From IMG/VR virus record IMGVR_UViG_3300013099_000017, positions 1 to 64,000 of that record: a stretch of 64,000 nt of DNA, one strand, 5' to 3'. The stretch comes from a virus. Position numbers and translations under genes: made by a program. A model generated the notes under the pieces. That model saw only the letters and a list, made by a program, of their open reading frames with translations, did no database searches and was not told where the DNA came from. Of the stretch, positions 28,905-34,163 are shown one piece after another; the stretch's first letter is position 1; the number at the start of each line of letters is the position of its first letter.

Positions 28905-29561
28905 ATGAAATTAACAAGTGCAACACTTAATGTGTTAAAGAATTTTGCTACAATCAATCAAGGTATTGTAGTAAATAAAGATAAACCCGTTTATACGAAA
29001 ACTGTTAGTAATACATTATTAGCAAAATGTGTATTCAGTGATTTGAATGAAACATTTGCAATGTATGATATTAGCACCTATTTACAAACGTTGTCATTAT
29101 TCGATGATCCGGATATTCAATTCAACGATGATAATATGCTGATTTCTGATGGTATTCAAAAAACAATCCGTCATTACAGTTCGATTGATGTTGTTGATTA
29201 TCCAGAAGATGAACAAATTGAAAGTATTGAAAGTTTAACAAAAGATTCAATTACAGATTTTGTCCTTTCTGGTGAACAATTATCAAAAATCTTAAAAGCA
29301 AGTGCTGTTATGAGATTTGATACTTTAGAATTTACATCAAATGGTAAAACAATTGAAGTGAAATTGTCTGATAGTTCAAATTGTACAGCCGATACATATG
29401 AAATGGATTTGGGTTTATGTGAGCGTGAATTTGAAGTAAAACTATTCGTTGATAATGTTAAAGTTTTACCTGCATCTTATAACGTATCTGTTTATGATAA
29501 TCTGGTTTGTTTCAAAAATGAAACACTATCTCTAACGTATTGGTTAGCCAAAGCTGATTAA
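28905..29561 (+). CDS. 45: Sliding clamp gp45
   Basis: MKL...TLNVLKNFATINQGI, FAMYD...YL..LSLFDDP.I.F, VLP.SY.V.V. Confidence 0.94.
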   Translation: MKLTSATLNVLKNFATINQGIVVNKDKPVYTKTVSNTLLAKCVFSDLNETFAMYDISTYLQTLSLFDDPDIQFNDDNMLISDGIQKTIRHYSSIDVVDYPEDEQIESIESLTKDSITDFVLSGEQLSKILKASAVMRFDTLEFTSNGKTIEVKLSDSSNCTADTYEMDLGLCEREFEVKLFVDNVKVLPASYNVSVYDNLVCFKNETLSLTYWLAKAD

Positions 29562-29630: not shown

Positions 29631-29840
29631 GTGAAAGAAACAAAAGTATGTACATGTTTGTGTCATGTTGATGGACAGAGTGTAACGCATATGTTTGATT
29701 GTTGTGAGTTATGTTATTCAAAATATATTGATAAAGATGGAAATATTGATATTGATCGCTGGGCAAAAGCATTTATATCTATTCACAAACATATACCATC
29801 ATTTAGAAAGAGTGGGAATGATGTATTGGTACATTTATAA
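29631..29840 (+). CDS. Hypothetical Cys-rich protein
   Basis: CTCLCH...H...CCELC. Confidence 0.5.
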   Translation: MKETKVCTCLCHVDGQSVTHMFDCCELCYSKYIDKDGNIDIDRWAKAFISIHKHIPSFRKSGNDVLVHL

Positions 29841-29852
29841 TAAGGAGATAAT

Positions 29853-30305
29853 GTGGAAATCATATTTAAAGATATAACAACTATTGAAAAAGGTTTTATT
29901 GCACATGGCGTTAATAGGCGTGTGAAAATGGGATCTGGTGTTGCTAAATCATTATATACCAAATGGGAGCAAGTTAAGATTCAATATATGAGTCGTAAAA
30001 ATCCTGTTCCAGCGTTAGGTAGTATTGATGAAGTTATTATCAATAAAGATTTATCGGTATTCAATTGCTATACACAAGAATTTTATGGGTTTGCAGGTGT
30101 TTATGCTAACATAACTGCTATTGTTGACTCTCTTGAAAAGGTGTGTAATGTAGCAAAAAATAATCTTATTACCACAATTTATATACCTAAAATTGGTTGT
30201 GATCGTGGTGGTTTAAGATGGGAAGATGTTGAACCGAAATTAAAGAAACTTGAAGATAAACACAATATTGAATTTGTTGTTTGTCGATATTTTGATAAAG
30301 GGTAA
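29853..30305 (+). CDS. Macro-domain (ADP-ribose binding/hydrolase) protein
   Basis: DIT.....FIAHGVN....MGSGVAK.L, FNCYTQ..YG, IPKIGC.RGGL.W..V motifs. Confidence 0.85.
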   Translation: MEIIFKDITTIEKGFIAHGVNRRVKMGSGVAKSLYTKWEQVKIQYMSRKNPVPALGSIDEVIINKDLSVFNCYTQEFYGFAGVYANITAIVDSLEKVCNVAKNNLITTIYIPKIGCDRGGLRWEDVEPKLKKLEDKHNIEFVVCRYFDKG

Positions 30306-30310
30306 TTATT

Positions 30311-31162
30311 ATGAGCAGTAAAGATAACTTAGGTGATCGTATTAAAAGTTATGAACGTTTGGAAACAGATAAATTTTTGATTCCAATGTTACCAACAATC
30401 GTTCGTTTAGATGGTCGGTCATTTAGTAAATTCACAAAATCATTTGAACCATTTGATGAAGATATGTCAAAAGCTATGGTGGAAACAACTAAATTTTTGG
30501 TTAAAGAATCTAATGCTTTAATTGGTTATACACAATCGGATGAAATCACATTAATTCTATATACAGATAATGTTGATTCACAAATATTTTTCAATGGTAA
30601 GAAACACAAATTGTTAAGTAATTTAGCATCATTAGCATCTGTAAAATTTTACGATGAATTGATTCATTTAAAACAAGTTAAAGATTTACCTGATTTATAT
30701 CCAAGTTTTGATTGTAGACTTTTTCAAGTTCCTACCAAAATGGAAGCATGGAACGCATTATTGTGGCGTGTACAGGATTCAATTAAAAACAGTATTCAAA
30801 TGCTGGCACAATCACATATTAGTCATACAGCACTACAAGGTAAAAACCAGAAACACCAACTTCAAATGTTAGATGATCTTGGTGTTCATTGGGAAGAATT
30901 ACCAAATCGTTTTAAGGAAGGTACATTTGTTCGTAAAGTGGTTTATGATAAATTGATTTATGAAGATGATCTTGAACGTGAAACCATCAAAGTAAAACGC
31001 AGTAAAGTTGATGTTGTTGATAATGGTTGTGATTTTAATAAAATTGAAAACCGAATTGAATACATTTTTGGTGATGATACAAATGCTGTTTATATTGATG
31101 TAAAAAATAAATCAGAAGGATTTATAAAAAATATTAAGAAAATATTTGCAAAAGCGGTCTGA
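30311..31162 (+). CDS. thg1: tRNA(His) guanylyltransferase Thg1-like 3'-5' polymerase
   Basis: LGDRIK.YE, VRLDGRSFSKFT, GYTQSDEIT (catalytic D/DE), FDCR.F, WR..D...NSI.M.A. Confidence 0.9.
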   Translation: MSSKDNLGDRIKSYERLETDKFLIPMLPTIVRLDGRSFSKFTKSFEPFDEDMSKAMVETTKFLVKESNALIGYTQSDEITLILYTDNVDSQIFFNGKKHKLLSNLASLASVKFYDELIHLKQVKDLPDLYPSFDCRLFQVPTKMEAWNALLWRVQDSIKNSIQMLAQSHISHTALQGKNQKHQLQMLDDLGVHWEELPNRFKEGTFVRKVVYDKLIYEDDLERETIKVKRSKVDVVDNGCDFNKIENRIEYIFGDDTNAVYIDVKNKSEGFIKNIKKIFAKAV

Positions 31163-31174
31163 GTGTGCTATACT
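31146..31174 (+). promoter_or_regulatory. Sigma70 promoter of the radical SAM gene / gene 44
   Basis: TTGCAA-N17-TATACT with TG extension. Confidence 0.75.
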
Positions 31175-31212
31175 GCTCAGATCATAAATAAATTAATGTT
31201 AAGGAGTTTAAC

Positions 31213-32202
31213 ATGAATAAAATAAAATTACCAACGGGCTTTCTTTTTACAGATACTTATTCAAAGGGTGAACTTGAAACTTTATCCATTGGGGATTATG
31301 GTAAATCGAAAAATATTAAAGCGGATTTTCTTGGATATACAAGGGAATTAAATGGTGTTCCGAGTGGCGAGATACAGCCATTACAGGAAAAATGGGTTAT
31401 TACTTTATCAACCCAATATGGTTGTCCAATGAAATGTACATTTTGTGATGTACCGGAAGTTGAATTTCGAGGCAATGCAACATTTCAAGATTTAAAAGAT
31501 CAATTATATAATGCATTTAAATGTTTCCCTGATGTAAAATATACAGATCGTTTAAATATACATTTTGCGAGAATGGGAGAACCAACATTTAATTCTGAGG
31601 TAATATCATTTAGCAATTGGTTATCTATTGCTAAACCTCAAATTCAAGAAGAATTGGGTATTAGAATTGAAGTTATACACCCTGTATTTACTACAATGTT
31701 GCCAAAGAGTGAGAAATCATTAGATCGTATTGCTCAGTTTGCAATTATTAAAAACCGAATATTTACTGGACAAGCAGGATTACAATTCAGTATTAATTCA
31801 ACATGTGATAAACAACGTGATGAAATGTTTAAGGGACAAGCATTGTCATTAGAACAAATTTCTAAATTCGCCAAAAAATTACCACCACCAATAGGCAGAA
31901 AATATTGTTTGAATTTTGCATATGCTTCTGGTAATGAATGTAATGGTGAAAAATTAGCAAAGTTATTTAATCCGGATAATTGGATGGTTAAGATTACACC
32001 AATTCATAATAATAATGCTTGTCGTGAAAATGGTATTGTAACTATTGATGGATATAGTAATTTTTATCCATATAAACAACCGGAACAAAGTTTTAAAAAT
32101 GCTGGGTTTGATGTATTAATTTTCATCCCTTCACAGGATGAAGAAGATGGATTGATTACATGTGGAAATGCTATTCTTGGGGGTAGCAAATTAAAGATTT
32201 AA
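31213..32202 (+). CDS. Radical-SAM enzyme, RlmN/Cfr-like
   Basis: STQYGCPMKCTFC (CxxxCxxC), RMGEP, LQFSINST, C-terminal ITCGN corresponding to the RlmN catalytic Cys (ACGQL). Confidence 0.75.
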   Translation: MNKIKLPTGFLFTDTYSKGELETLSIGDYGKSKNIKADFLGYTRELNGVPSGEIQPLQEKWVITLSTQYGCPMKCTFCDVPEVEFRGNATFQDLKDQLYNAFKCFPDVKYTDRLNIHFARMGEPTFNSEVISFSNWLSIAKPQIQEELGIRIEVIHPVFTTMLPKSEKSLDRIAQFAIIKNRIFTGQAGLQFSINSTCDKQRDEMFKGQALSLEQISKFAKKLPPPIGRKYCLNFAYASGNECNGEKLAKLFNPDNWMVKITPIHNNNACRENGIVTIDGYSNFYPYKQPEQSFKNAGFDVLIFIPSQDEEDGLITCGNAILGGSKLKI

Positions 32203-32226: not shown

Positions 32227-33174
32227 ATGGATGTTGTAGAAAACCAATTTTTGTTTGTGGAAAAATATCGTCCACAAACAATTAAAGATGTAATTTTACC
32301 AAAAAGATATAAATCAATTTTTAATGAAATTGTAAAGAAAGGCGATCACCAACATTTATTGTTATCGGGTGGAGCAGGTATTGGAAAAACGACAATCGCA
32401 AAAGCATTATGTAATGAATTAAAATCTGATGTACTTGTAATTAATGCTTCTGAAAATGGAAATATTGATACATTAAGAATACCTATCAGGAATTTTGCTT
32501 CAAGTGTATCAATAACAGCACGAAGAAAAGTTGTTATTTTGGATGAAGCTGATTATTTAAATGCACAATCTACACAACCTGCACTAAGAAGTTTCATGGA
32601 AGAATTCGCAAGAAATTGCCGTTTTATATTAACATGCAATTATGTTAATCGTATCATAGAACCATTAAGATCAAGATGTTCTGTTATTGAATTCAATTTA
32701 ACCAAACCAGAAAAATTAACTGTTGCCAAAGAATTTTTACATCGTACCGAAGAAATATTGAAATTGGAAGGTGTTGAATTTGATCGTCATGTAATTGGTA
32801 ATATAATTAAACAACATAATCCCGATTTCAGAAAAATATTAAATGAAATCCAAAGTAATATTGTTGATGGAAAATTAAATCAAAAATTAACTAATACATT
32901 ATCTGTTAATGATGTTGAAGATTTAACAGGTTGGTTAAAAAATAAAGAATTTAAATTATTGAGAGAATGGGTTGCTTTAAATAGTGATATTAGTTTGGTT
33001 GAATTAAATCACATGGTTTATAATAAACTTGATGTTATGTTGAAACCTCAATCAATTCCGGAAGCAATTATGATTATGAATGAATATCAATATAAGGTTG
33101 GGTTTGTTGCTGATCAGGAAATTAATACAATTGCGTTCTTTACAGAATTAATGATGTCGGTGGAATTTAAGTAA
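32227..33174 (+). CDS. 44: Clamp loader large subunit gp44
   Basis: LFVEKYRPQTI.D.ILP, GGAGIGKTT, INAS, ILDEADYL, SRC. Confidence 0.97.
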   Translation: MDVVENQFLFVEKYRPQTIKDVILPKRYKSIFNEIVKKGDHQHLLLSGGAGIGKTTIAKALCNELKSDVLVINASENGNIDTLRIPIRNFASSVSITARRKVVILDEADYLNAQSTQPALRSFMEEFARNCRFILTCNYVNRIIEPLRSRCSVIEFNLTKPEKLTVAKEFLHRTEEILKLEGVEFDRHVIGNIIKQHNPDFRKILNEIQSNIVDGKLNQKLTNTLSVNDVEDLTGWLKNKEFKLLREWVALNSDISLVELNHMVYNKLDVMLKPQSIPEAIMIMNEYQYKVGFVADQEINTIAFFTELMMSVEFK

Positions 33175-33476
33175 TGGATAGATTGAATCTAAATGTTCAC
33201 ATGGATATTATTGATAAACTTGTTCTTAACTTAGTGTCATGTAAGTTGAATGATGAACATACCAGAATAATGACAAGTTTTATGATTGAAAATTATTTGG
33301 ATCATAATGATATTTATGATTATATAGTTGTTTGTGATGAACGGAATAATTCACATATTGATAGTGGAATGTTAATATATGAGGTTATTATATATAATGA
33401 TGATACTAATCTGTATATATTCAGGCGTAAAGTTTATGATAAAAATGGTAAAGTTATAGTGGAGGTTATTGTATGA
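33174..33476 (+). CDS. Small protein resembling the tail-sheath (gp18) C-terminal domain, copy 1
   Basis: LNDEHTR....IENYL...IYDYIVVCDERNN...IDSG.LIYEV.I. Confidence 0.55.
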   Translation: MDRLNLNVHMDIIDKLVLNLVSCKLNDEHTRIMTSFMIENYLDHNDIYDYIVVCDERNNSHIDSGMLIYEVIIYNDDTNLYIFRRKVYDKNGKVIVEVIV

Positions 33477-33772
33477 GTGATAATAGTAGATTTAGTAAAT
33501 TGTTGAAAATAGTTGATGATTGTCTTTATCATTATTATACTATACTGAATGATACCACCACCAGAACAGGTTTAAAATTGATATTAAATGAAAGTCTGGA
33601 AAAATTTATTCAAGGTGATGAATTTATTATAATATGTGATGAACGTATTAATACACCAGATGTAATTGATAATCATGAATTAAGATGTTTGGTGCATGTT
33701 TATGATCAAGGTGTAGAATATTTAATCCAACGTAAATTAACATCTATGGGGTGTTCTTATTATGAAGAATGA
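33473..33772 (+). CDS. Small protein resembling the tail-sheath (gp18) C-terminal domain, copy 2
   Basis: LNDTTTR..LK..LNESL....EFIIICDERINTPDVIDNHEL...V.V. Confidence 0.55.
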   Translation: MSDNSRFSKLLKIVDDCLYHYYTILNDTTTRTGLKLILNESLEKFIQGDEFIIICDERINTPDVIDNHELRCLVHVYDQGVEYLIQRKLTSMGCSYYEE

Positions 33773-34163
33773 TGCATTTTATTATATTGGTTTAATTAAT
33801 ACAAAATCTGAAATGCCCGAAGATTCTGAAATTAAATTAAATTATCTTCCATTTTTAAGTAATCGTAATTTTAGTTATACTATTGATACTGTATTAATGG
33901 CTAATGAAATGAATCGTTTTCCAGATTGTAGCAAAGTGCTACAATTTAAATATTTGTTTCATGCAATTAAAAAACGAAAACGTTTTGCTAAGTGGACAAA
34001 ACCACAAAAACCTTCAATAGATTTTTTGATTGTTAAAAAGTATTATGGTTATAATAACAAAAATACAGAAATAGCAATGAAACTTTTAACCAAAGCACAA
34101 TTAAAAATCATTAAATCAAAAATGAATATTGGTGGTGATAAAAAAAGGAATTATGACGTATGA
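33762..34163 (+). CDS. 62: Clamp loader small subunit gp62
   Basis: Y.PF..NR..SY..DTV..ANEMN......LQF.YL...I.KRKRF.KW.K, VK.YYGY....A..LL. Confidence 0.93.
   Translation: MKNDAFYYIGLINTKSEMPEDSEIKLNYLPFLSNRNFSYTIDTVLMANEMNRFPDCSKVLQFKYLFHAIKKRKRFAKWTKPQKPSIDFLIVKKYYGYNNKNTEIAMKLLTKAQLKIIKSKMNIGGDKKRNYDV

What the first reader, a model, noticed from the sequence alone, without database searches (positions are those of the whole stretch)
29853..32202. Macro domain + Thg1-like + RlmN-like radical SAM trio inside the replisome operon: possible tRNA protection/repair module
Seen: three adjacent genes between 45 and 44 with intact catalytic motifs. Macro has HGVN..MGSGVA; Thg1 has RLDG and SDE; the radical SAM has CxxxCxxC, MGEP and a C-terminal TCG. 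Established: Thg1/TLPs add G-1 to tRNA-His and repair 5'-truncated tRNAs; E. coli RlmN makes m2A37 on tRNAs including tRNA-His and m2A2503 on 23S rRNA; macro domains remove ADP-ribose added by toxins such as DarT. Inference: a counter-defence unit that restores or shields translation substrates attacked by tRNA-targeting and ADP-ribosylating defences. The co-occurrence of Thg1 and an RlmN-like enzyme, which share tRNA-His as a substrate, is notable.
Basis: partly seen in the sequence, partly recalled or inferred. Interest (0 to 1): 0.7.

Follow-up and report, generated by a model that had tools for sequence, protein, structure and literature searches.

The report
Three-gene accessory island in phage
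Three real accessory genes sit between the sliding-clamp and clamp-loader genes of an uncultured T4-like phage. They look like separately mobile counter-defence genes, not one tRNA-repair machine: an ADP-ribose-handling macro domain, a tRNA 5'-end repair polymerase, and an uncharacterised RlmN-shaped radical SAM enzyme that recurs in NAD operons.

Summary
Three intact, co-oriented genes (macro 29853-30305, Thg1-like 30311-31162, radical SAM 31213-32202) lie between gp45 and gp44 of a 144-kb IMG/VR T4-like phage.

- **Conservation.** The trio recurs in two close relatives of the same clade, once with shuffled order. A third relative has only Thg1. 71 more distant T4-like loci have none of the three.
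- **Radical SAM (rSAM).** It travels alone: 77% identical in an unrelated phage, and 1 of 15 other rSAM-bearing viral records has Thg1 and 1 has this macro. It has the RlmN/Cfr fold (Z 22). It lacks RlmN's resolving Cys118 (Thr64 here), lacks the N-terminal RNA-binding domain, and scores far below the RlmN/Cfr cut-offs. It belongs to a very large, mostly viral, uncharacterised clade (phrog_24834). That clade sits inside NrtR-type NAD-salvage operons in four independent contexts. This scan had already noted the family on other DNA.
- **Macro.** It is 32-42% identical to macro proteins inside phage NAD-reconstitution operons (Adpp, an ADPR-1''-phosphate phosphatase, 2026 preprint).
- **Thg1.** It is a bacterial-type Thg1-like protein, and the record carries no tRNA-His gene.

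Best reading: a cargo island of independent counter-defence genes, two of them NAD/ADP-ribose-linked.

The parts
28905..29561 (+). gp45 sliding clamp (left border of the island)
   Evidence: Pfam gp45-slide_C 22.7 bits, below the 25 cut-off. Syntenic gp45 homologues in 71 of 80 T4-like loci. 72-78% identical in clade relatives L221, L223 and L228.
29631..29840 (+). Small Cys-rich ORF (69 aa), no family; not part of the trio
   Evidence: No Pfam or PHROG hit. Its homologue in L221 lies upstream of gp45, so it is not linked to the trio.
29853..30305 (+). Stand-alone macro domain protein (150 aa), phrog_335, Adpp-like
   Evidence: Pfam Macro 25.3 bits. phrog_335 'phosphatase' E 3e-26. Model pLDDT 91.9. 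Fold matches: BT1257 TM 0.88, TARG1 0.80, DarG 0.81, Poa1p 0.76-0.79. 42% identical to the macro in the NMNAT/Nudix-NamPT-macro operon of Rhizobium phage RHph_I1_18. 32% identical to the macro in the Prs-macro-Namat operon of Vibrio phage K412.
30311..31162 (+). Bacterial-type Thg1-like protein (TLP), 283 aa
   Evidence: PF04446 99.1 bits. phrog_4717 E 2e-74. Best solved relative is the B. thuringiensis TLP 4kgk, E 1e-31, with RLDG and SDE aligned. Eukaryotic Thg1 chains score only E 2e-9 to 1e-6, and the archaeal TLP 5axk 1.5e-5.
31213..32202 (+). RlmN/Cfr-fold radical SAM enzyme of an uncharacterised, mostly viral clade (phrog_24834), 329 aa
   Evidence: phrog_24834 E 5e-115. More than 7,200 homologues, with the top 120 at least 63% identical. 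VIA Z 22.2 to RlmN residues 83-363 and to 6fz6; Cfr Z 16.1; other rSAM enzymes 13.7 or less. C71/C75/C78 cluster, C317 in TCGN, and T64 at the C118 position.
32227..33174 (+). gp44 clamp-loader large subunit (right border of the island)
   Evidence: AAA 64 bits, DNA_pol3_delta2, Gp44_lid. 599 of 600 matched IMG/VR stretches were confirmed as relatives, and the 80 kept are 48-55% identical.

Best explanation
The gp45-gp44 junction of this T4-like clade is an insertion hot spot holding three separately acquired accessory genes. They are co-oriented with the replisome genes and no terminator-like site separates them, so co-transcription is likely; it is inferred, not shown. (1) The macro protein is a member of the phage 'phosphatase' macro family (phrog_335). 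It most likely hydrolyses a free ADP-ribose derivative, such as ADPR-1''-phosphate made by RES-type NAD+ phosphorylases. That would return ADPR to the NAD pool and support the phage's own NAD+ reconstitution genes (an NMNAT-Nudix ORF and a NamPT-family ORF, about 105 kb away). (2) The Thg1-like protein is a bacterial-type 3'-5' polymerase. It most likely rebuilds 5'-truncated host tRNAs, in parallel with the phage RNA ligase. (3) The radical SAM protein has the RlmN/Cfr catalytic core: a [4Fe-4S]/SAM site plus a C-terminal Cys on a CG(N/Q) loop. It lacks RlmN's RNA-binding N-domain and its resolving Cys118. It most likely carries out a Cys-mediated radical methyl (or methylene) transfer onto an NAD-related or adenine-nucleotide small molecule, not onto A37 or A2503. 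Its chemistry and substrate are unknown. Macro and rSAM share an NAD/ADP-ribose theme but are not obligately coupled. The three genes do not form one machine. Shown here: gene identities, folds, missing RlmN features, distribution and gene contexts. Inferred: all activities and substrates.
For: Island variability within the clade: L223 has gp45-macro-Thg1-rSAM; L221 has gp45-x-Thg1-x-macro-rSAM-rSAM2-gp44; L228 has gp45-x-Thg1-gp44 only. Of the 71 loci among 80 more distant T4-like ones that show both gp45 and gp44, most have a gap of 36-180 bp, and none of the 80 holds any of the three genes. rSAM autonomy: it is 77% identical in an unrelated temperate-type phage, L222. It has no conserved neighbour in 17 phage loci. 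Whole-record searches of 15 rSAM-bearing viral records found Thg1 in 1, this macro family in 1 and NAPRTase in 1. Three of the four records rated 100% complete have none of them. rSAM fold and missing features. rSAM inside NAD operons: PncB-PncA-rSAM-NadE-DUF5662-NrtR in four gut alphaproteobacterial MAGs; rSAM-NMNAT-NrtR-x-ADP-ribosylglycohydrolase in an archaeal MAG, 64% identical; PncB-rSAM-rSAM-rSAM-NadE-x-NadD-NrtR on a 165-kb viral contig, and rSAM-NMNAT-like on another. Small-molecule hints: fusions of a QueT-type ECF transporter component, the rSAM and an MTA/SAH nucleosidase. Macro. The phage's own NMNAT+Nudix, NamPT and RNA ligase. Thg1-like type and its RNA-repair or anti-defence neighbours elsewhere; Iyer et al. 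2021, PMC7824862.
Against: All three genes are kept in three members of the clade despite order shuffling, and macro and rSAM are present or absent together in 4 of 4 clade genomes. That is also what a functional link would give, although n is small and the genomes are related. Most phage copies of the rSAM have no NAD gene nearby, so the NAD link rests on about four independent contexts out of about 50. The rSAM fold is that of an RNA methylase, and no small-molecule substrate is known for this fold. In this genome the macro is not next to the NAD genes. By fold it cannot be separated from the TARG1/DarG glycohydrolases. No activity was measured.
Confidence: 0.55

Rival explanations
1. One reading: one tRNA protection and repair module. 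The macro removes ADP-ribose from RNA ends, or clears Appr-1''-p from NAD-dependent RNA repair. The Thg1-like enzyme restores tRNA 5' ends. The rSAM installs m2A37-type methylation on the same tRNAs.
For: The trio is kept in three clade members, even after reordering. The rSAM has the RlmN fold. Poa1p-type macros do act downstream of Tpt1 in tRNA splicing (PMC7824862). A 72%-identical rSAM lies on a contig with a Tpt1/KptA gene about 5 kb upstream. The phage has an RNA ligase.
Against: The rSAM lacks the RlmN N-domain and C118 and scores far below the family cut-offs. It occurs alone in unrelated phages rated complete. No Tpt1 gene was found in the record. No tRNA-His gene was found. L228 keeps Thg1 without the other two.
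Confidence: 0.12
2. The rSAM is an RNA (rRNA or tRNA) or DNA adenine C-methyltransferase acting alone. It would remodel host ribosomes or tRNAs, or mark phage nucleic acid. The NAD-operon contexts would be incidental.
For: The best structural matches are RlmN and Cfr, clearly above all other rSAM enzymes. The C-terminal CG(N/Q) Cys is conserved across the family. About 60-65% identity across very different phages fits a universally conserved target such as rRNA. DNA methylase genes lie nearby in L222 and L006.
Against: It has no RNA-binding N-domain and no C118, and C118 mutants of RlmN stay cross-linked to RNA (titles of 5hr6 and 5hr7). NrtR-regulated NAD operon contexts recur in bacteria, archaea and a virus. 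Fusions to transporter and nucleosidase domains point to a small molecule.
Confidence: 0.2
3. The macro protein is an orphan DarG2-like antitoxin that removes DarT2-type ADP-ribose from phage DNA. This would parallel the NADAR protein AdfN, which counters DarTG1.
For: The best NCBIfam hit is DarG (33 bits). The fold is close to DarG macrodomains, TM 0.77-0.81. Orphan antitoxin-like ADP-ribosylglycohydrolases are proven in T4-like phages for DarTG1 (PMC11825919).
Against: The DarG hit is 33 bits against a 250 cut-off and covers only residues 86-143. The TARG1 catalytic Lys position (DarG has the equivalent Lys, from memory) is an invariant Gln in this family. The nearest phage relatives sit in NAD reconstitution operons.
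Confidence: 0.1

Closest known systems
RlmN / Cfr (class A radical SAM RNA methyltransferases)
   Same: Same catalytic core fold: Z 22.2 over 263 residues to RlmN, 16.1 to Cfr. Same CxxxCxxC cluster motif and GEP motif. Same C-terminal Cys in a CG(Q/N) loop at the position of the methyl-carrier Cys355. The family profile hits true RlmN full-length at 55-107 bits.
   Different: No N-terminal RNA-binding domain; the alignment starts at RlmN residue 83. The resolving Cys118 is replaced by an invariant Thr64. It has its own conserved 55-residue N-terminal beta-rich extension and two further invariant Cys in the phage group (C232, C270). Curated RlmN/Cfr models score only 17-27 bits against cut-offs of 290-633. 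Gene contexts are NAD salvage, cysteine-hydrolase plus flavoprotein cassettes, and transporter fusions.
Adpp, the macro-domain ADPR-1''-phosphate phosphatase of phage NARP1-AP operons (Osterman et al. 2026 preprint, 10.64898/2026.01.28.702374), and yeast Poa1p
   Same: Same size, a single macro domain. Same PHROG-type family ('phosphatase'). 32% identical to the macro inside a Prs(Adps)-macro-Namat operon, and 42% identical to one behind NMNAT/Nudix-NamPT. Fold match to Poa1p, TM 0.76-0.79.
   Different: Here it is not adjacent to the NAD genes, and the phage has NARP2-type genes with no Prs-like Adps. Identity to the characterised Vibrio phage Gary protein was not measured. By fold, BT1257, TARG1 and DarG score as high or higher.
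Bacterial Thg1-like proteins (e.g. Bacillus thuringiensis TLP, PDB 4kgk) and jumbo-phage Thg1 genes
   Same: E 1e-31 to 4kgk, with the catalytic RLDG and SDE motifs aligned. 45-49% identical to jumbo-phage 'tRNA-His guanylyltransferase' genes. Phage Thg1 has already been interpreted as 5'-end tRNA repair (PMC7824862).
   Different: It sits in a roughly 144-kb T4-like phage between clamp and clamp loader, not in a jumbo phage. It has a C-terminal extension of about 40-70 residues. No phage tRNA-His gene was found.
NrtR regulons of NAD metabolism
   Same: Relatives of the rSAM lie in operons with PncA, PncB, NadE, NadD/NMNAT, ADP-ribosylglycohydrolase and an NrtR (Nudix + winged-helix) regulator.
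   Different: No paper in the held library contains both 'NrtR' and 'radical SAM'. The window itself has no NrtR-type regulator next to the rSAM.

Membership tests
RlmN/Cfr (class A radical SAM methyltransferases) | CxxxCxxC [4Fe-4S]/SAM motif and RlmN-type core fold | tested here: met
   C71/C75/C78 are invariant. VIA Z 22.2, rmsd 3.1 Å, 263 residues aligned to RlmN 5hr7; Cfr Z 16.1; next rSAM enzymes 13.7 or less.
RlmN/Cfr (class A radical SAM methyltransferases) | C-terminal methyl-carrier Cys (E. coli C355, in a CGQ loop) | tested here: met
   C317 in TCGN is invariant in the phage group, and CG(Q/N) is nearly invariant across the wider family. Relatives align to RlmN models up to positions 341-352 of 355. 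The structural alignment runs to RlmN residue 363.
RlmN/Cfr (class A radical SAM methyltransferases) | Resolving Cys seven residues before the cluster (E. coli C118) | tested here: not met
   The profile alignment to a true RlmN puts invariant Thr64 at that position.
RlmN/Cfr (class A radical SAM methyltransferases) | N-terminal RNA-binding domain, and a score above the curated family cut-off | tested here: not met
   Structural alignments start at RlmN residue 83. TIGR00048 scores 26.8 bits against a cut-off of 290, and only residues 58-131 match.
Thg1 / Thg1-like proteins | Thg1 palm domain above the Pfam cut-off, with the catalytic acidic motifs (RLDG, SDE) | tested here: met
   PF04446 99.1 bits against 29.2. 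The motifs align with 4kgk.
Thg1 / Thg1-like proteins | Bacterial TLP type rather than eukaryotic tRNA-His-specific Thg1 | tested here: met
   E 1e-31 to the B. thuringiensis TLP, against 2e-9 to 1e-6 to eukaryotic Thg1 chains. The region that carries the eukaryotic anticodon-recognition motif aligns with the TLP sequence instead.
Thg1 / Thg1-like proteins | 3'-5' nucleotide addition to tRNA 5' ends | not testable with these tools
   Needs an enzyme assay.
Macro domain, Adpp/Poa1p-like ADPR-1''-phosphate phosphatases | Macro fold with ADP-ribose-binding motifs | tested here: met
   Pfam Macro 25.3 bits against 22. Model pLDDT 91.9; TM 0.76-0.88 to BT1257, TARG1, DarG and Poa1p. HGVN, MGSGVA, NCYTQ and IGCG..GGL are conserved.
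Macro domain, Adpp/Poa1p-like ADPR-1''-phosphate phosphatases | Position inside a NARP1 (Adps-Namat) operon | tested here: not met
   There is no Prs-like gene in the record. The NamPT and NMNAT-Nudix genes are about 105 kb away. Homologues at 32-42% identity do lie in such operons.
Macro domain, Adpp/Poa1p-like ADPR-1''-phosphate phosphatases | Phosphatase activity on ADPR-1''-phosphate | not testable with these tools
   Shown only for the Vibrio phage Gary protein, in the preprint.
DarG / TARG1 ADP-ribosylglycohydrolases | Catalytic Lys (TARG1 K84), and for DarG the C-terminal DarT-binding domain | tested here: not met
   The phmmer alignment puts Gln75 at the K84 position, and Gln75 is invariant in the family. 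The protein is a single 150-aa domain. The DarG model scores 33 bits against a cut-off of 250.
QueL (queuine lyase, radical SAM) | Homology to C. difficile QueL, next to QrtT and QueK | tested here: inconclusive
   The QueL sequence could not be fetched. Only 2 of 301 Clostridia genomes hold a member of this rSAM family, which does not fit the reported frequency of QueKL in gut Clostridia. QueT fusions do exist.

The most novel reading that the evidence does not exclude
The radical SAM gene is the first-noticed member of a very large, mostly viral clade of RlmN-fold enzymes that act on NAD+, ADP-ribose or a related adenine nucleotide rather than on RNA. Possible reactions include C-methylating or otherwise radical-modifying the dinucleotide or an ADPR-derived immune signal. 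On this reading it is a new NAD-centred counter-defence activity, which in this phage clade travels together with an Adpp-like macro phosphatase.
Probability: 0.2. Interest if true: 0.85.

Novelty: new variant of a known kind. Interest (0 to 1): 0.55.

Why it matters
NAD+ depletion and ADP-ribose chemistry are now central to phage-bacteria conflict (NARP1, NARP2, NARP3, aRES/Adpp).

The rSAM family is conserved at about 60-65% identity across unrelated phages. It has more than 7,000 sequence clusters and no assigned function. It is embedded in NrtR-type NAD operons in bacteria, archaea and viruses.

That makes it a concrete, testable candidate for a missing reaction in NAD/ADP-ribose metabolism or its viral manipulation. 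It also shows that the RlmN/Cfr scaffold exists in a form that cannot use the textbook two-cysteine mechanism.

The island itself illustrates how T4-like phages stack separately mobile counter-defence genes at the clamp/clamp-loader junction. It also warns against annotating these rSAM genes as 'RlmN', as JGI's automatic names do.

Tried and rejected
- **Close DNA relatives.** Megablast of the island against 50,697 phage records gave no match.
- **Single-protein pattern scans.** IMG/VR scans with Thg1 and with the macro found no confirmed relatives, a limit of the method.
- **QueL (queuine lyase) reading of the rSAM.** It was prompted by QueT-rSAM-nucleosidase fusions. I dropped it as the main reading. 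The C-terminal domain is an MTA/SAH-nucleosidase type that may simply clear 5'-deoxyadenosine and SAH. Only 2 of 301 Clostridia genomes have a family member. The QueL sequence and the PNAS paper could not be obtained.
- **Cellular cassette hydrolase as nicotinamidase.** I asked whether the isochorismatase-family hydrolase in the cassette (36 of 48 loci, together with a TrxR-like flavoprotein) is PncA. This is not supported: the best hits are RutB, BiuH and YcaC, all far below cut-off.
- **Extra rSAM genes.** Those beside the family in L221 and L005 are not related to each other.
- **DUF5662 in the own genome.** The search was uninformative, because the control rang nowhere.
- **Close macro homologues.** Two homologues at about 49% identity (P0292, P0313) have no rSAM, Thg1 or NAD-gene homologue by tblastn and no such Pfam label among their neighbours.
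- **Complex prediction.** I did not run it, because I do not claim that these proteins bind.
- **Literature.** No paper in the held library contains both 'NrtR' and 'radical SAM', and none that turned up describes this rSAM clade.
Full report
**1. What is there**

The window is the first 64 kb of a 144,243-bp IMG/VR virus record, about 79% complete and about 29% G+C. Its replication genes are T4-like: gp46 is 38% identical to those of cyanophages and Methylophilales phage Melnitz.

Between gp45 (28905-29561) and gp44 (32227-33174) lie four co-oriented ORFs:
- a 69-aa Cys-rich ORF;
- a 150-aa macro protein (29853-30305);
- a 283-aa Thg1-like protein (30311-31162);
- a 329-aa radical SAM protein (31213-32202).

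Family searches confirm the assignments:

| Gene | Pfam | PHROG |
|---|---|---|
| Macro | Macro 25.3 bits (cut-off 22) | phrog_335, E 3e-26 |
| Thg1-like | Thg1 99.1 bits (cut-off 29.2) | phrog_4717, E 2e-74 |
| Radical SAM | Radical_SAM 22.8 bits (below cut-off 29.5) | phrog_24834 'unknown', E 5e-115 |

No + strand terminator-like site interrupts the row.

**2. Is the trio a unit?**

Among 80 more distant T4-like loci (gp44 48-55% identical), 71 show both gp45 and gp44. Most have a gp45-gp44 gap of 36-180 bp, some 0.3-2.3 kb. None of the 80 contains any of the three genes.

Close relatives found through identical-protein look-ups show a variable island:

| Locus | Gene order | Identity to window |
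|---|---|---|
| L223 | gp45-macro-Thg1-rSAM | 77%, 77%, 86% |
| L221 | gp45-x-Thg1-x-macro-rSAM-second rSAM-gp44 | Thg1 71%, macro 57%, rSAM 81% |
| L228 | gp45-x-Thg1-gp44 only | Thg1 65%, gp44 81% |

So Thg1 is in 4 of 4 clade members. Macro and rSAM are in 3 of 4, always together. This is one lineage, so it is weak evidence of linkage.

Outside the clade the rSAM moves alone:
- It is 77% identical in a temperate-type phage with Cro, YfdP and DNA methylases (L222).
- It is 59-64% identical in 16 IMG/VR loci and 55% in Bacteroides phage Versailles, with no conserved neighbour at all.
- Whole-record searches of 15 such viruses found Thg1 in one (about 35 kb from the rSAM), this macro family in one, and NAPRTase in one. 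Three of the four records rated 100% complete have none of them.

Two macro homologues at about 49% identity also lack rSAM or Thg1 neighbours. Jumbo phages that carry both Thg1 and a macro keep them about 25 kb apart. An obligate three-part module is therefore not supported.

**3. The radical SAM protein**

*Size of the family.* It has more than 7,200 homologues at E <= 0.001. The best 120 are all at least 63% identical. The nearest ESM Atlas clusters are 73-91% viral.

*Fold.* The model (pLDDT 73.7) matches RlmN (Z 22.2, 263 residues, RlmN residues 83-363), the unpublished 6fz6 methyltransferase (Z 22.2) and Cfr (Z 16.1). All other radical SAM folds score 13.7 or less. A family profile hits genuine RlmN full-length at 55-107 bits. 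This is a sister clade of RlmN/Cfr.

*Where it departs from RlmN.* It fails defining features:
- Curated models give 17-27 bits over residues 57-134 against cut-offs of 290-633.
- RlmN's N-terminal domain is absent. A conserved beta-rich 55-residue extension takes its place.
- The resolving Cys118 position is an invariant Thr.
- The C-terminal Cys (C317, TCGN) is kept. C232 and C270 are invariant only in the phage group.

*Gene context.* Relatives at about 30% identity from Asgard and Thermoplasmatota archaea and many bacterial phyla sit in a conserved cassette with an isochorismatase-family cysteine hydrolase and a thioredoxin-reductase-like flavoprotein. This holds in 36 of 48 loci, and fusions exist. 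Others are fused to a QueT-type ECF transporter component and an MTA/SAH nucleosidase.

Phage-type members (44-64% identical) lie inside NAD operons in four independent contexts:
- PncB-PncA-rSAM-NadE-DUF5662-NrtR in gut alphaproteobacterial MAGs;
- rSAM-NMNAT-NrtR-x-ADP-ribosylglycohydrolase in an archaeal MAG;
- PncB-rSAM-rSAM-rSAM-NadE-x-NadD-NrtR on a 165-kb viral contig;
- rSAM-NMNAT-like on another viral contig.

Earlier notes of this scan had flagged the same family in NAD operons on other DNA. I re-derived two of these contexts independently. No paper in the held library links NrtR and radical SAM.

I infer a substrate related to NAD or adenine nucleotides rather than RNA. The confidence is modest, because most phage copies have no NAD neighbour.

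**4. The macro protein**

The model is confident (pLDDT 91.9). It falls in the TARG1/DarG/Poa1p/BT1257 group of macrodomains and cannot be resolved further by fold. The TARG1 catalytic Lys position is an invariant Gln, within a conserved NCYTQ motif.

The family is very common in phages: 1,258 records matched a relative. Its best phage matches are the macro behind NMNAT/Nudix-NamPT in Rhizobium phage RHph_I1_18 (42%) and the macro between Prs and Namat in Vibrio phage K412 (32%). The latter arrangement is the NARP1-AP pathway. Its macro protein, Adpp, was shown to dephosphorylate ADPR-1''-phosphate and so defeat the aRES NAD+ phosphorylase defence (preprint 10.64898/2026.01.28.702374).

The present phage encodes an NMNAT-Nudix ORF and a NamPT-family ORF at about 136.8-140.4 kb (NARP2-like). 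It has no Prs-like gene. An Adpp-like role is the best-supported reading. An orphan DarG2-like role remains a rival.

**5. The Thg1-like protein**

Its closest solved relative is the B. thuringiensis Thg1-like protein (E 1e-31), with the catalytic motifs aligned. Eukaryotic Thg1 is far more distant.

Relatives at 45-49% identity are in jumbo phages, where they have already been read as 5'-end tRNA repair enzymes (PMC7824862). In Vibrio phage D181 the gene lies near a nucleotidyltransferase, an RNA ligase and Pnk. A 54% relative sits beside an Acb1 anti-CBASS gene.

The record has only tRNA-Arg(TCT) and tRNA-Met(CAT), with no tRNA-His. It has an RNA ligase at 76.3 kb and no Tpt1. Repair of 5'-damaged host tRNAs is the most likely role. 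A specific link to tRNA-His or to the rSAM has no support.

**6. Verdict**

The 'tRNA protection module' reading is largely not supported.

The island is best seen as stacked, separately mobile counter-defence genes at a hot spot. Two of them (macro and rSAM) point to NAD/ADP-ribose metabolism. The macro and Thg1 genes are new members of known kinds.

The rSAM is the interesting part. It is a huge, uncharacterised, mostly viral variant of the RlmN/Cfr scaffold that cannot use the canonical two-Cys mechanism and recurs in NAD regulons. All activities remain to be tested.

Noticed in passing
own genome beyond the window, about 136.8-140.4 kb (G000:C1:136792-137760 and 139662-140426): A 350-aa ORF combines NMNAT (CTP_transf_like) and NUDIX domains, and a 465-aa NamPT/NAPRTase-family ORF lies nearby. 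Together they resemble the NARP2-type NAD+ reconstitution pair of KVP40-like phages.
   Followed up: partly
own genome beyond the window, G000:C1:76343-76969: An RNA ligase (PF09414, 86 bits, 347-aa ORF). The phage therefore has RNA-repair capacity far from the Thg1-like gene.
   Followed up: no
window 33174-33772: Two small tandem ORFs (100 and 99 aa) lie between gp44 and the gp62-like gene (33762-34163). They are weak paralogues (31% over 68 residues, E 5e-4) sharing a CDER motif. They are absent from relative L228, where gp62 follows gp44 directly.
   Followed up: partly
L221:7103-8089: In a clade relative, a second and unrelated radical SAM gene (328 aa, Radical_SAM + Fer4_12, MoaA/SPASM-like scores of 50-78 bits) sits between the RlmN-fold rSAM and gp44.
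   Followed up: partly
L130-L179 (e.g. L151:4351-6840, Candidatus Heimdallarchaeum): A widely distributed three-gene cassette joins an isochorismatase-family hydrolase, a thioredoxin-reductase-like flavoprotein and the RlmN-fold rSAM. It is found in archaea and many bacterial phyla (36 of 48 loci), with fused forms. Its function is unknown.
   Followed up: partly
L099:6001-8445 and L182: Single 807-814-aa proteins fuse a QueT-type ECF transporter component, the RlmN-fold rSAM and an MTA/SAH-nucleosidase-like domain.
   Followed up: partly
contig of P0400 (no DNA held): A Thg1-like gene (54% identical) lies directly downstream of an Acb1 (anti-CBASS) gene and near a SIR2 gene, on a 13-kb contig that also carries a Rep3_C gene.
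   Followed up: no
window 29631-29840: A 69-aa ORF with several CxxC-like Cys/His clusters lies between gp45 and the macro gene. It has no family match. Its homologue in L221 lies on the other side of gp45.
   Followed up: no
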